The translations under genes were made by a program, and so were the position numbers. Below the pieces are notes generated by a model. That model made no database searches. It had not been told where the DNA came from and saw only the letters and a program-made list of their open reading frames with translations. A stretch of 64,000 bases of DNA from the human T2T-CHM13v2.0 reference genome, Homo sapiens: the NCBI RefSeq assembly GCF_009914755.1, contig NC_060935.1, one strand, 5' to 3'. Below, piece by piece: positions 1,155-42,785 of this stretch. The stretch's first letter is position 1, and every line of letters begins with the position of its first letter.

Positions 1155-2210
1155 GTAAGTAAGCTATTTAATGAAGTCACTTGTGAGAGGTTGACTGAGA
1201 AGTGTATGCCTGGTAGATGTGGTTAAAGAGTGAAAACTATCACTTGGCTGTGGTCCTATGCAATCCTATAAGAAATCATATCAATTGCTGAGGGTTCTCT
1301 GTTCTCCTGGTTTATCCATGCTGCTCAGTAGCATGAGAAAGCAAGACCTTTGAAGGTCGTTATGAAGCACGGCAAAGAAGCAAAGGCAACAGGGACATAT
1401 CAAATCCCATGTTCTGCTGCTGTGCACATAACAATCACTAGATCAACCATAGACACATCATATTCTGTTTTCTTATTTGATGAGATTGCCATCTTCATAT
1501 TTAATTAAATGTACAGGGTGGTTTCTGTTTTCAAATGATACTTTGACATTAACTCATACTAGGCTGCTGTCTCCTTGACCTGACAAGATCAGGTTTTTAT
1601 TCTTTTTAGTGGGTTTCTTCGTGACTGGTTCATGCATTGCCAATTCCCAATCTCTACTAAAAGTCACAGTAATGGAGGGACTCATAACTTTGGCACATGG
1701 GCTGATGCCATTACAGTGGGATGGTGGCCTCAAGCATCAATGACCCACATTTCTGCTCTAGAGAAAGCAACTCCTCCGTCTTAAGAGAGCACCGTTTTTT
1801 CAGGCTTAGTACTGCAACCTGCTAGTGGTGAGCATTGCACATCTCTATTACCTTAACATGCCAGAGGAGTGGGAGTTAGTTCGACCTGGTCTGTATGTAT
1901 AGTACCATAATATCTGAGCCCATCCATTTCCAACGTGCTCATGGCTCCCTTCCATCAGTTTGCAAAAGCTTTAATAAGCAAAGTGATGGCTGGGCTATTT
2001 TTCTGTTTGTTCTGATTCCAATTATTCCTGCTGTCTTCATTAATAATACCTTGCACCATGATGATTTGGGTAGTTGTCTTCAATGAATGCTGCAAATTCC
2101 TGGTCACTTTCCTCTAAGTGGTCTGGCTCTCAGATAGGTCAGGTATTCTAAAGGTAAAGACAGTATTAACTGATGATAGTAATGGTAAATTCTTTCTATT
2201 CTCTATCTCA

Positions 2211-38640: not shown

Positions 38641-40819
38641 AATTAAATTCTTTGTACCTATGGACAAGCCCACAAGCAACAAGCAAAATGCAAACTATTA
38701 TATTTCTTGTTACAATCTTCTTAAAATTGTTAACATTTTCCATCTCCTGAGATTTTTAGAATATTTTAAAAATTATAAGAATATTAAGAAGTGAAAAACT
38801 CTCATATTTCTTTGTGTATGTATATATGTGTATTTTCATTGTTTTACTTATAGCCCTGTTTTCAATAAATAGCTATTTAGTAAATAGCCATGCAGATATT
38901 ACAAAAGAGAGAGAAAAATGTTGATTTTCTAACACTCCTGATAGATTAATTTTCCCTCAGAGTGCAGGATATTCTGCATTTAGTTTAGATAACATAAGCT
39001 TTTTTTCATTTTGTTTTAGCCATAGCTGAATTTTGTTTGTTACCCCTTCTGAAGTTTCTTTTGCTAAGATATATTTTTGTACTCTTAGTTTACAATTTTT
39101 TTTTCCACAGTGAGGATGGTGACAATTTTCATTAAACACCTTATAAATAGTCCTACACCATCTCTATATACCTCCAGTTCTGTTATTATCCAAATTTATC
39201 ATCTCTCCTAGGTGTGTAAGCACCTTGACACAAAATGCATCTTGAGAACTGTTAAGCCAAAGCAGCAGCTAATTTAACAGCTTTGGCTTGGTCAATAATG
39301 TTGACCAGTAGGAAAACATCGGCTGTCTTCCATCTTCCTGCTGGTCAGCATTATTAACTCCACAGTTTAATGAGTGAGCTTGAGAACTGCTGCCTGTGTA
39401 TGCTTCTGTAGAAGATGAGATTGGATTAAATTCAATCTATATAATGCCAGGGATGATGAAAATTGCATGTCCTCTTACATTCATGTAAAAATTGCTTTTA
39501 TGGAGCTCTTCCTTCTTTCTGTAAACTCAGCCTTTCTTAAAATGAAATATACATTTTCAATAGGAATCAGACGAAGGGTGACTTCTACCATTACTTGAAA
39601 AGCAGCAAATGCAACTTGGACAAAATTAAATGAGAGTTCTATCACACATTTGGCTAAGTTCAGGTTTGCAAAAAAGACTCATAGAGTCCAAGTTTGGTGT
39701 ATATGGTGGTTTGTGATGTTTTACATTATTTGCCACATCCCCATGCTAAGTCAATGATGGATATCAAATGCTGGGGTTAAGGTTCCAAGCCTGTAAGACT
39801 CTCAGAAACCCTGTCATGGCAGAATTCTGTACGTAAAAGAGATACCACAACCTTCTGTTTAGTTCCTTTGCTTCTTTGTTTGCCACATTGCCCATCATTC
39901 TTGGCTCCTATCTAAGATTTGGGACTCCATTAAGCTTTAATGTGATGCTACTGTCTCATCCTCACCTCAGTCTGTCCATAGCTTTGCTTTTGTTCTACAT
40001 GCTAGTTCTTAGGACCCTGGCTGCACTCTATGTGGTGTATGACATTTTAAATGGTGACAACCACCTGTTGTTCTGTTCCGTGAATGTGGGCTTCCACTCA
40101 TTGGGCAGAAAGAGTCCTACCTAAGAGACTCAACTTATTCCTTAGACTTTCCTACTAAAAATGTGTGACCAGTTTGAATTTCCTTTGATCACATGCTGTT
40201 TTTTATTTCCAAAGCATGAGTATGAGTCTTTAGGGGAAGTTGAGGAGCATCCATTGAATTCACCCTCAAAATTAGTAGCCTATCCCCTCATATGTATCTT
40301 CCAGACCTTGTTTTCTAAAAAGTTCATTATATAAAACCTTTGGTACCCTTGCAAAAAAAAAAAAGCCCCAACTTCGCTTGAGTCTTCCAACTTTAAAAGG
40401 TATGGACTTCTCTTGATTTGAATTTTCAGCTGTTTTAACTGGAAATGTCTCTCAGCTTCAGTCAATTAAGGTAGCTTCTGTTGTTGTTTTCTTCATTATG
40501 GTGTTAAAGTTTTAGCTCTAATCTGCCACCTGCCCTGTAAAGGACATCGATACTCCAGAGCATGTTTGCTAATTATATTTGATTAGTTGAAAGGTCATAT
40601 GAAGGTTGTGTGTGTGTGTGTGTCTTTGGATGGGGATGTCTCAGAGCACTAATAGATGATGTTCCTCAGATCCACCAAGGGTAAATAAATGGAGTTGAAC
40701 AAAAGGTGTTGGCAATGATTGACTAAATCACAGTGAAAGATGTGGATCTGGCCTTGGAAAACTTTTCTACTTAGCTGACATTCTTAGCTATTGTTTGACC
40801 TTGAATAAGAATCTTAATC

Positions 40820-40905: not shown

Positions 40906-41470
40906 AAGAATCTTAATCCAGTTTACTGTGTCAGAGGGTGGTGAGATTCAAGATCATTATAAAGTGTTTGTGTATTACCTACTTAAGGGAACCTTTATGA
41001 ACTTTGTCATTCAAATAATCTTTTCGGAACCCAGAGTTAAAATTTCCCAGAGCTATTGTTGTCTGTTGATCTTTACCCAGAATCCTCTGACGAAATCAGA
41101 TTCCCAATCTAGCAGTTAGGACATGACATAATGCACTTTTAAAAAAGCAAAAGGAAAACCTAGGAAAGACAAAGCCAGCTTTAAGTCACTTTCAAAGTCT
41201 CATGATTTTCCTGAAGTGAGGAGACTCCATGGAAAAGAGTGATATAATGCCTCCAATTTATCTCAATGGAGTACATTTGACCGGGATTTATATAGATCAA
41301 ATTAATTGCTTTTCTGCAAGATACAGCAGAAGATGAGGCTTTTGATAGACATTTCTGAAGTTAAATATTCTTTATGCAGCAGGATGTTAAAATAGTACTC
41401 TTTCTGTCCCATGGGTGGAAGCCCACATGCGTAGAACAGAATAGCAGGTGGACACTCTACTCCCCCATTC

Positions 41471-41596
41471 CAGACAAGATCAGGCACATTCAGGGTGTTA
41501 TGGTCGTAGACAGCCTACAGCACCCGGTATTCCCAGGAGGTCTCCCATCCAAGTACTAACCAGGCCTGACCCTGCTTAGCTTCCAAGATCAGATGA
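41471..41596 (-). pseudogene. Circularly permuted 5S rRNA retropseudogene (5S nt 35-119 joined to nt 1-41)
   Basis: Reverse complement of 41596-41512 = TCATCTGATCTTGGAAGCTAAGCAGG...ATACCGGGTGCTGTAGGCT (5S 35-119). It is followed immediately by 41511-41471 = GTCTACGACCATAACACCCTGAATGTGCCTGATCTTGTCTG (5S 1-41). Flanked by direct repeat TACTCCCCCATTCCA (41458-41472 / 41597-41611). Confidence 0.95.
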
Positions 41597-41938
41597 TACT
41601 CCCCCATTCCAAACTGGAAATGCTGGGCCATGTAAGCAGGGCTCACAAAGAACTCTCTTTTCTTAAACTAAAGTGTGATTGAAATGTAAAACTGTCCATA
41701 TTTTGGGGATGAGTATACACTCATGAAAAGAGTAGCATCTTCAAGGCCATAGCTGTATCAATCACCTTCCAAAGTTTTCTCCTATCCCATCATTATTATT
41801 ATTGTATTTATTATTATCCTGTGGTAAGAACTCCTGACTTCTCACTTTATTCTATTAAGTGGTTGGAAAGGTATGAGGGGAGCTGAGGATTAAATAAAAC
41901 ATTTATTTGGACAAAGTTGTTAAGTTGTTCCCACTTTT

Positions 41939-42184: not shown

Positions 42185-42785
42185 TGTGTTATTTGGGTTC
42201 TCTGGGAAGCGGATGCTGAGACCGAGCTAGAGGGGCAGATGGTTTATTAAGAAAGAGGGGAATGCCTATGAAAAATGAAGAGGAAAGAAAGAAGCAAAAT
42301 AGAGAAAATAAGAGAGCCTCAGACCAAATGTGAATCTTACAAAGTCTTGGGCAATCAACGGGGAGCTCCCACATTGGAAGGGGGAGAGGTGGATTCTGTC
42401 TTCCTCTTAAGCCTAGCGAGAACAGCCTCAAGGATGCTCTGGAGAAATTGCACATTTCCTGGAGCTAGGGGAAGACTGTTCACTATCTGACTCACCACTT
42501 GCCAATCTGAAGAGTGAGAGCTGATGGAAACAGCCGTAGGCAGCAGGCTAAGGGGCCATTTGAATGAAGAGTGTCTGTTAGAGTCCCATGTTGGGCAAAA
42601 TGGCCCAGCCTTAGTACCCCTGTAATACTCAGTCATTGGTTGAAGAACCTCAGCTCTGATGCCACTGTAGTGGATTCCAGGGCTAATGCACATGAAGTCT
42701 GTTGGCTAACTATACTTTTCACAACTGAGTAGCAAGGTCTTTCTTGAAGAGAGATTCAAGCAGTGTACCTCTATGGGTACTGGGA
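42185..42785 (-). mobile_element. LTR16A-like (ERVL) LTR interrupted by duplication copy B
   Basis: 5' part 'tttgggttctctgggaagcggatgctgagac...gggagctc'. 3' part 'agagtcccatgttgggcaaaatggccc...tcagtcattgg...agcaaggtctttcttgaagagagat'. Homologous to the element at 51918-52338. Confidence 0.7.
42367..42566 (+). repeat. Local direct duplication, copy B
   Basis: Aligns to 41939-42138 at roughly 90% identity by eye. Confidence 0.95.

What the first reader, a model, noticed from the sequence alone, without database searches (positions are those of the whole stretch)
41458..41611. Circularly permuted, tailless 5S rRNA retrocopy: a possible genomic fossil of a circular or end-joined 5S RNA
Seen in sequence: on the minus strand the insert reads 5S nt 35-119 and then, with no spacer, 5S nt 1-41 (junction ...CTGTAGGCT|GTCTACG..., between 41512 and 41511). 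It totals ~126 nt, slightly more than one full turn, so nt ~35-41 occur at both ends. One identical 14-15-bp direct repeat (TACTCCCCCATTCC[A]) brackets both segments, indicating a single insertion event. There is no poly(A) tail. Seven of the 10 differences from the human 5S sequence as I recall it are CpG transitions. The redundant CpG (nt 36-37) decayed to TG in one copy and CA in the other, which suggests the redundancy dates from insertion. Established: genomic 5S genes are separated by long spacers, so a seamless 3'-to-5' junction cannot be copied from the rDNA array. 5S helix I holds the two ends adjacent. L1 ORF2p makes ~15-bp TSDs and tailless small-RNA retrocopies. RNA ligation (RtcB, in U6/L1 chimeras) and RT template jumping are both documented. 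Inference: L1 machinery nicked at TTCC/AA (pyrimidine/purine, endonuclease-like), primed internally near nt 41, ran through nt 1 into nt 119, and went just past its start. This implies either a covalently circular or ligated 5S in the germline, or an end-to-end template jump. Ordinary annotation would likely report only a partial 5S hit and miss the permutation. I cannot confirm that it is undescribed.
Basis: partly seen in the sequence, partly recalled or inferred. Interest (0 to 1): 0.93.

Follow-up and report, generated by a model that had tools for sequence, protein, structure and literature searches.

The report
Circularly permuted 5S rRNA retrocopy
This is a dead, reverse-transcribed copy of 5S ribosomal RNA whose two halves sit in swapped order, and a second human copy with the same break points suggests the copying enzyme ran once around a single 5S molecule.

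Summary
Window 41596..41471 (minus strand) aligns without gaps over 126 nt to a head-to-tail dimer of the real chr1 5S gene. It reads 5S nt 35-119 joined directly to nt 1-41, has no A-tail, and is bracketed by one perfect 15-bp direct repeat. Seven of its 10 differences are CpG transitions.

New here:
- Seven junction pattern searches of T2T-CHM13 found one more true 5S 3'-end|5'-start junction, on chr9. It reads nt 35-120|1-40, is also 126 nt, and has other flanks and no shared substitutions.
- Both copies start at the first and end at the last nucleotide of hairpin loop C.
- The 3' break is the main internal-priming hotspot of known tailless 5S retropseudogenes.
- A 5' end at nt 33 occurs in 3 of 80 ordinary 5S copies. 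That weakens the "exactly one turn" argument but does not remove it.

Best reading: one L1-type target-primed reverse transcription started in loop C, ran off nt 1 onto the 3' end of the same 5S molecule, and stopped on meeting its own start. A covalent circle is possible but not needed, and 5S ends do not fit RtcB chemistry. I found no prior description. It is a new variant of a known kind, of moderate interest.

The parts
41597..41611 (-). Target-site duplication, copy upstream of the insert in the 5S sense (TACTCCCCCATTCCA on the + strand)
   Evidence: 15 of 15 identical to 41458-41472; the only direct repeat family in 41300-41800
41512..41596 (-). Segment A: 5S rRNA nt 35-119 (85 nt), with 4 substitutions
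   Evidence: Ungapped alignment to the chr1 5S gene and to its head-to-tail dimer; substitutions listed
41511..41512 (-). Seamless junction: 5S nt 119 joined to nt 1, with no spacer and no extra bases
   Evidence: The 119+119 dimer aligns without a gap; the 120 and 121 dimers need a gap
41471..41511 (-). Segment B: 5S rRNA nt 1-41 (41 nt), with 6 substitutions. The last 2 nt (TG, 41471-41472) are shared with the duplication, so the copied part may end at nt 39-41
   Evidence: Rfam does not detect this piece on its own
41458..41472 (-). Target-site duplication, copy downstream of the insert in the 5S sense. Its + strand 3' end is the inferred primer for first-strand synthesis
   Evidence: the primer role is inferred from the standard geometry of target-primed reverse transcription

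Best explanation
This is a non-functional retrocopy made in one target-primed reverse transcription event of the tailless (L1-dependent, internally primed) kind.

1. The nicked chromosomal strand primed cDNA synthesis inside hairpin loop C of a 5S rRNA, at nt 40/41. This is the usual start site of tailless 5S copies.
2. The enzyme copied down to nt 1.
3. Instead of stopping, it continued on the 3' end (nt 119) of the same RNA molecule. Helix I holds that end next to nt 1, and the end is freed as helix I is unwound.
4. The enzyme copied nt 119 down to 42 and then re-copied the six or seven loop nucleotides (41-35) by displacing its own first cDNA.
5. It stopped there, and the cDNA was joined to the other side of the staggered break.

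The result is nt 35-119|1-41 between 15-bp target-site duplications. No covalent RNA circle is needed.

Shown: the anatomy, the single-event flanks, the second copy, and the loop C break points. Inferred: the enzyme, the same-molecule jump, and the displacement stop.
For: - Anatomy and a perfect 15-bp duplication around both segments.
- A second, independent copy at chr9:85.90 Mb reads nt 35-120|1-40 and is also 126 nt. It has different flanks, a junction one T longer, and no shared derived substitutions.
- Seven junction patterns found these 2 loci as the only true junctions in the genome. The reversed-pattern controls gave 0 hits each.
- In the Rfam structure, loop C is human nt 35-40. Both copies begin at its first and end at its last nucleotide.
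- The 3' break is the main tailless hotspot. In Noll 2015 Table S2, 49 of the 103 chr1+chr2 rows are 37-44 nt long. Examples met here end at nt 40 (chr19) and nt 41/42 (chrX).
- Among 33 ordinary 5S copies that keep the 3' end, 28 reach nt 10 or lower and 1 stops at nt 33. Among all 80 ordinary copies examined, 3 stop at nt 33. Two of two junction copies stopping at nt 35 has an expected probability of about 0.003-0.005 if the upstream unit behaved like an ordinary second template.
- The junction 3' ends (119, 120) lie within the natural range seen in the 23 newly fetched 3'-complete, mostly A-tailed copies: 120 in 11, 121 in 7, 119 in 2, 118 in 1 and 117 in 2.
- Dong 2016 raised reverse transcription through open-ended structured RNAs with close ends as an idea (main text read).
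Against: - There are only two cases.
- Three ordinary copies (L120, L122, L130) also have their 5' end at nt 33. A stop at the 5' edge of loop C may therefore be a property of the 5S template or its bound proteins. That removes part of the one-turn argument.
- No experiment known to me shows ORF2p jumping between the two ends of one RNA.
- The chr9 copy has only a weak 8-bp duplication (7 of 8 matches; 201 of 5000 shuffles reach this), a non-L1-like target, and 7 unexplained extra T between duplication and insert.
- The chr11 nick site matches the L1 consensus only loosely.
- The data cannot separate a jump on a linear RNA from a covalent circle.
Confidence: 0.55

Rival explanations
1. Covalently circular 5S. 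A 5S RNA whose 3' end had been ligated to its 5' end was the template. The enzyme primed in loop C, went once round the circle and stalled at its own start.
For: - The anatomy is the same as for the best explanation: seamless junctions without extra bases in 2 of 2 copies, and just over one turn in both.
- CircRNA-derived pseudogenes with non-colinear junctions and poor A-tails are documented for spliced circles (Dong 2016, main text read).
Against: - RtcB needs a 2',3'-cyclic phosphate and a 5'-OH. A 3'-OH or a 5'-triphosphate sharply reduced ligation, and 5S is said not to carry a cyclic phosphate normally (Moldovan 2019, passages).
- A full-text search for 'circular 5S' found 2 papers, both on plant rDNA and not on a circular RNA.
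- The two junctions differ (119|1 and 120|1), so two differently trimmed circles would be needed.
- No multi-turn (rolling-circle) copy exists among the junction hits.
Confidence: 0.12
2. Intermolecular template switch. After reaching nt 1 of one 5S RNA, the enzyme switched to the 3' end of a second 5S molecule, as in chimeric retrogenes. It stopped in loop C because of a template-intrinsic stop, or because the second RNA was a fragment cut in loop C.
For: - Template switching is an accepted route to small-RNA/L1 chimeras (passages).
- A 5' end at nt 33 recurs in 3 of 80 ordinary copies, including an A-tailed one (L122, nt 33-120).
Against: - With a stop rate of 3 in 80, both copies stopping there has an expected probability of about 0.003.
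- 28 of 33 ordinary 3'-complete copies run to nt 10 or lower, yet 0 of 2 junction copies carry a complete upstream unit.
- 5S/L1 chimeras make up about 10.5% of 253 catalogued cases. They are described as frequently antisense and truncated at loops C and D, so switching onto a 5S 3' end is not a frequent outcome for L1 templates.
- No self-junction was found for U2 or 7SK, which are also sources of tailless copies, though few would be expected.
Confidence: 0.2
3. DNA-level origin or artefact: two adjacent insertions, a tandem duplication plus deletion of a colinear pseudogene, a spacer-less 5S dimer gene as source, or a misassembly.
For: None specific. It cannot be excluded formally without orthologous loci.
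Against: - One perfect 15-bp duplication brackets both segments and none lies between them.
- The same architecture occurs at an unrelated locus.
- The genome holds no spacer-less 5S dimer, since only these two junctions exist.
- Array units are about 2.2 kb apart.
- The assembly is telomere-to-telomere, and RefSeq annotates a 5S pseudogene at this place.
Confidence: 0.03

Closest known systems
Tailless retropseudogenes of small RNAs (Schmitz 2004, recalled; Noll et al. 2015, PMC5322556: abstract, part 1 of the two-part Results and Discussion section and Table S2 part 1 read)
   Same: Derived from 5S rRNA. No A-tail. The 3' end lies at the loop C hotspot. Flanked by a target-site duplication. 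TPRT with internal priming is inferred. The rough age fits the anthropoid burst they describe.
   Different: Their 'perfect' elements start at nt 1 directly after the duplication. Here nt 1 is internal and is preceded by nt 35-119 of 5S, so the element is circularly permuted and about three times as long as the usual 40-nt form.
Chimeric retrogenes and small-RNA/L1 chimeras made by template switching or RNA ligation (Buzdin, recalled; Moldovan 2019, PMC6789731; bioRxiv 10.1101/2025.02.02.635956: passages read)
   Same: Two RNA-derived parts in the same orientation, joined seamlessly, inside one pair of target-site duplications.
   Different: Both parts come from the same RNA species and together make one turn. 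There is no L1, Alu or mRNA part and no A-tail. The upstream part is not a full-length small RNA.
CircRNA-derived pseudogenes (Dong et al. 2016, PMC4897178: main text read; supplement not seen)
   Same: A non-colinear (3'-to-5') junction fixed in genomic DNA, with a poor or absent A-tail. The authors themselves note that structured linear RNAs with close ends could give the same picture.
   Different: Their parents are back-spliced exonic circles with documented circular RNA. Here the parent is a Pol III transcript with no documented circular form, and the junction is the natural ends, not a splice junction.

Membership tests
Tailless retropseudogene (Noll 2015 criteria) | Copy of a small cellular RNA without an oligo(A) tail | tested here: met
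   5S-derived, no A-run at either end
Tailless retropseudogene (Noll 2015 criteria) | 3' end at a recurrent single-stranded site of the source RNA | tested here: met
   The copy ends at nt 40/41, the last loop C nucleotides. 49 of 103 tabulated Table S2 rows are 37-44 nt long
Tailless retropseudogene (Noll 2015 criteria) | Flanking target-site duplications | tested here: met
   15 of 15 identical
Tailless retropseudogene (Noll 2015 criteria) | 5' full length, with nt 1 abutting the upstream duplication | tested here: not met
   nt 1 is preceded by 5S nt 35-119
Tailless retropseudogene (Noll 2015 criteria) | Target site resembling TT/WAAAAWW | tested here: inconclusive
   In the 5S sense the chr11 site reads TT/TGGAAT. 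The chr9 site reads GC/CACCCA
Chimeric retrogene by template switching | Two same-sense RNA-derived parts within one pair of duplications, with none between them | tested here: met
Chimeric retrogene by template switching | The 3' part is an A-tailed L1, Alu or mRNA copy and the 5' part a full-length small RNA (definition recalled) | tested here: not met
   Both parts are 5S, there is no A-tail, and the upstream part starts at nt 35
CircRNA-derived pseudogene | Non-colinear junction of the parent sequence in genomic DNA | tested here: met
   nt 119|1; nt 120|1 at chr9
CircRNA-derived pseudogene | A documented circular parent RNA | not testable with these tools
   No RNA data here. The search for 'circular 5S' gave 2 unrelated plant rDNA papers
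Functional 5S rRNA gene (Rfam RF00001) | Full-length colinear match with helix I formed by nt 1-9 and 110-118 | tested here: not met
   Score 47.3 bits against 114.6 for a real gene. Model positions 1-34 are aligned to flank with many non-standard pairs

The most novel reading that the evidence does not exclude
5S rRNA exists, at least rarely, as a covalently closed circle in the primate germline or early embryo. L1 machinery copied such circles at least twice, leaving the chr11 and chr9 elements as the only genomic record of a circular Pol III ribosomal RNA.
Probability: 0.12. Interest if true: 0.8.

Novelty: new variant of a known kind. Interest (0 to 1): 0.55.

Why it matters
- The two copies are natural, fixed products showing that a reverse transcriptase working at a chromosomal nick can pass from the 5' end of a small structured RNA to a 3' end and go once round. 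The break points are set by one hairpin loop.
- This gives a sequence signature for end-to-end template jumping, or for RNA circles: one turn plus the loop. It can be searched for in any genome and reproduced in vitro with ORF2p.
- It shows that covariance-model annotation misplaces such elements. RNA5SP336 is drawn over 32 nt of non-5S flank and omits 41 nt of true 5S.
- It has no apparent function for the host. It lies antisense in a NELL1 intron.

Tried and rejected
- A 70-nt junction-centred DNA search scored only 40 of 137 candidates. Apart from the window's own locus it returned only half-length matches to the chr1 array. It was uninformative, so I used patterns instead.
- The chr19:37197122 hit is an ordinary tailless 5S nt 1-40 whose duplication happens to resemble the 5S 3' end. 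The chrX:37457179 hit is likewise an ordinary nt 1-42 copy. Both were rejected as junctions.
- A source-gene model, in which one permuted copy is the parent of the other, was rejected. There is no shared flank, no shared derived substitution, and the junctions differ.
- A nicked-in-loop-C 5S copied fragment by fragment was rejected as sufficient on its own. It predicts no overlap, whereas nt 35-40/41 occur at both ends.
- Cut-and-trimmed fragments were also rejected. Exonuclease trimming to the stems predicts the opposite pattern, with the loop lost rather than kept on both pieces (inference).
- Self-junction searches were negative for hY1/hY3, U2 and 7SK. Given roughly 2 cases per several hundred 5S copies, the expected numbers are below about 1-2, so this says little.
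- tRNAs, the other class that is both end-paired and prone to tailless copies, were not searched.
- Supplement reading closed. I did not see Supplementary Figure S1D of Dong 2016, parts 2-10 of the Noll supplement, or the chimera table of the 2025 preprint. Any of these might list such an element.
- No other primate genome is held, so empty sites and dating by presence or absence could not be done.

Full report
**1. What is in the sequence**

I took the reference 5S sequence from the genome itself. Rfam RF00001 searched in the window's own assembly found the chr1 array, with units about 2.2 kb apart. The gene was read from locus L002.

- Window 41596..41471 (minus strand) aligns in a single ungapped block of 126 nt to a 119+119 head-to-tail dimer of that gene. 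This is nt 35-119 (41596-41512) followed directly by nt 1-41 (41511-41471).
- A monomer explains only the first 85 nt. Dimers with 120- or 121-nt units need a gap.
- The only direct repeat in 41300-41800 is a perfect 15-mer at 41458-41472 and 41597-41611. It brackets both segments and does not occur between them.
- There is no A-run.
- Of the 10 differences from the gene, 7 are CpG transitions, 1 is another change at a CpG site and 2 are non-CpG. The duplicated CpG 36/37 decayed differently in its two copies.
- The Rfam and RefSeq span 41512-41628 comes from forcing model positions 1-34 onto unrelated flank. It scores 47.3 bits, against 114.6 for a real gene.
- The nt 1-41 piece alone is invisible to Rfam even at E<=10.

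**2. Is it unique?**

I ran seven pattern searches of the whole T2T-CHM13 assembly for a 5S 3'-end|5'-start junction. The reversed-pattern controls gave 0 hits in every search.

- They returned the window locus and one other true junction, at chr9:85,902,3xx (minus strand).
- Two further hits are ordinary tailless 5S copies whose target-site duplications mimic the 5S 3' end: nt 1-40 at chr19 and nt 1-42 at chrX, examined.
- The chr9 element reads nt 35-120|1-40, ungapped against a 120-nt dimer, and is also exactly 126 nt.
- It has different flanks and a junction one T longer.
- It has 14 substitutions, none shared as a derived state with chr11. The two are therefore independent events, not a parent and a copy.
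- Its duplication is short and weak: CACCCATT against CACCCGTT, a level that 201 of 5000 shuffles reach.
- Seven extra T lie between the upstream duplication and the insert. I cannot explain them. A short second-strand extension on an A-tail, or untemplated addition followed by slippage, are guesses.
- Copies more than about 10-15% diverged could have escaped these patterns.

**3. Where the breaks fall**

- In the Rfam alignment of the real gene, the terminal hairpin of helix III (loop C) is human nt 35-40, closed by C34-G41 and U33-A42.
- Both permuted copies start at nt 35 and end at nt 40 or 41. The whole loop is therefore present at both ends.
- The 3' break is the known hotspot. Noll et al. 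2015 report 555 human 5S tailless retropseudogenes that are truncated in loops, and they argue for internal priming (abstract and Results read).
- I tabulated the chr1 and chr2 rows of their Table S2. These are 103 of the 555 entries, taken from part 1 of 10 of the supplement. Of these, 49 are 37-44 nt long (mode 42) and 27 are 86-92 nt long.
- A 2025 preprint likewise reports 5S pieces in 5S/L1 chimeras truncated at loops C and D (passages).

**4. Control for the 5' break**

I collected 80 ordinary dispersed 5S copies in two sets.

- Set 1 has 57 copies. They hold nt 60-82 with a decayed CpG 63/64. This was all hits except the two permuted loci, fetched.
- Set 2 has 23 further copies that keep the 3' end. 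These are the distinct new loci, fetched. Two of them, L150 and L151, match only nt 101-119 and may be chance hits, since the control pattern gave 3 hits.
- In set 1, 44 of 57 copies start at nt 1-3. On re-alignment, four more are decayed full-length copies.
- Among the 33 copies from both sets that keep the 3' end, 28 reach nt 10 or lower.
- Three copies (L120, L122, L130) start at nt 33, and L122 is an A-tailed nt 33-120 copy. A 5' end at the 5' edge of loop C therefore recurs in ordinary copies, at 3 of 80.
- This weakens the claim that ending just past the start can only mean one turn.
- It does not remove the claim. If the upstream unit were an ordinary second template, both junction copies stopping there has an expected probability of about 0.003, or about 0.005 using only the 33 3'-complete copies. 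The usual outcome, a complete upstream unit, is seen in 0 of 2.

**5. Mechanism**

The best-supported reading is a single tailless TPRT event:

1. cDNA synthesis is primed in loop C.
2. Synthesis runs to nt 1.
3. It continues on the 3' end of the same 5S molecule.
4. It stops after re-copying the loop, where the enzyme meets its own cDNA attached to the chromosome.

Several points bear on this reading.

- Helix I pairs nt 1-9 with nt 110-118. The 3' end is therefore next to nt 1 and is released as the enzyme unwinds the helix (inference).
- The junction 3' ends (119, 120) fall within the spread of natural ends seen in the 23 newly fetched 3'-complete, mostly A-tailed copies: 120 in 11, 121 in 7, 119 in 2, 118 in 1 and 117 in 2.
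- A covalent circle gives the same product and cannot be excluded. However, RtcB needs a 2',3'-cyclic phosphate and a 5'-OH. Ligation dropped sharply with a 3'-OH or a 5'-triphosphate, and 5S is not normally cyclic-phosphate ended (Moldovan 2019, passages).
- I found no paper on circular 5S RNA. The search for 'circular 5S' gave 2 plant rDNA papers.
- Intermolecular switching remains possible if loop C is a strong intrinsic stop, or if loop-cut fragments are preferred acceptors.
- DNA-level origins are very unlikely, given one duplication around both parts and the recurrence at a second locus.
- L1 involvement is inferred from the class. The chr11 target reads TT/TGGAAT in the 5S sense, a loose fit to Noll's TT/WAAAAWW. 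The chr9 target does not fit.

**6. Age (inference, with recalled substitution rates)**

- Non-CpG divergence is 2 of 106 sites at chr11 and 5 of 106 at chr9.
- At chr11, 8 of the 10 CpG dinucleotides inside the insert carry a change (7 by transition); at chr9, 8 of 10 do.
- Both insertions are therefore tens of millions of years old. This agrees with the anthropoid burst of tailless insertions described by Noll et al..
- No other primate genome was available to test this.

**7. Generality**

- No 3'-end|5'-start junction was found for hY1/hY3, U2 or 7SK. The motifs were taken from the genes located.
- Of the RNAs tested, 5S is the only one that combines paired ends with frequent internal priming. 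This fits the same-molecule model, but expected counts are too low for weight.
- tRNAs were not tested.

**8. Prior description**

- Full-text searches found no description of a permuted 5S or small-RNA retrocopy. The terms were: '5S rRNA' + 'circularly permuted' + 'pseudogene' (5 unrelated papers); 'permuted' + 'retropseudogene' (2 unrelated); 'template jumping' + 'LINE-1' + '5S rRNA'; 'circRNA' + '5S rRNA' + 'retrotransposition' + 'template switching'; 'chimeric retrogenes' + '5S rRNA'; and 'circular 5S'.
- The nearest idea is one sentence in Dong et al. 2016. It says that non-colinear pseudogenes might also arise by reverse transcription through open-ended structured RNAs with close ends.
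- Subscription-journal papers are outside the searched library.

**9. Verdict**

This is a real, verified, apparently undescribed structural variant of the tailless retropseudogene class, with two members in the human genome. It is mechanistically informative and has no evident function. The circular-RNA reading is the boldest one that the data do not exclude, and I give it about 12%.

Noticed in passing
L041 (CHM13 chr9:85,902,331-85,902,456, locus 1474-1599, minus strand): A second circularly permuted 5S retrocopy (nt 35-120|1-40, 126 nt). It has a weak 8-bp duplication (CACCCATT / CACCCGTT) and 7 unexplained extra T between the upstream duplication and the insert.
   Followed up: yes
L120, L122, L130 (CHM13 chr6:2.95 Mb, chr6:153.49 Mb, chr15:91.18 Mb): Three ordinary 5S retrocopies start at nt 33, the 5' edge of loop C (nt 33-92, nt 33-120 plus A-tail, nt 33-92). 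This looks like a recurrent 5' end. I did not find it mentioned in the passages I read, and its cause is unknown.
   Followed up: partly
window 41597-41628: The RefSeq pseudogene RNA5SP336 (41512-41628) includes 32 nt that are target-site duplication and flank rather than 5S, and it omits the 41 nt of true 5S at 41471-41511. This is a consequence of a global covariance-model alignment.
   Followed up: yes
L046 (chr19:37,197,1xx) and L163 (chrX:37,457,1xx): Two clean examples of ordinary tailless 5S copies ending in loop C (nt 1-40 and nt 1-42), with 15-nt and 13-nt target-site duplications. Both duplications happen to mimic the 5S 3' end, which produced false junction hits.
   Followed up: yes
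L001 (chr1:227,865,319-227,865,437): One unit of the chr1 5S array carries G106A and scores slightly higher against Rfam than the majority units (115.9 against 114.6 bits).
   Followed up: no
window 40711-40777, 42294-42380, 40562-40673: Weak Rfam matches (GlsR7, RFPL3-AS1_1, SCARNA7), all far below their gathering scores. I take them as chance.
   Followed up: no
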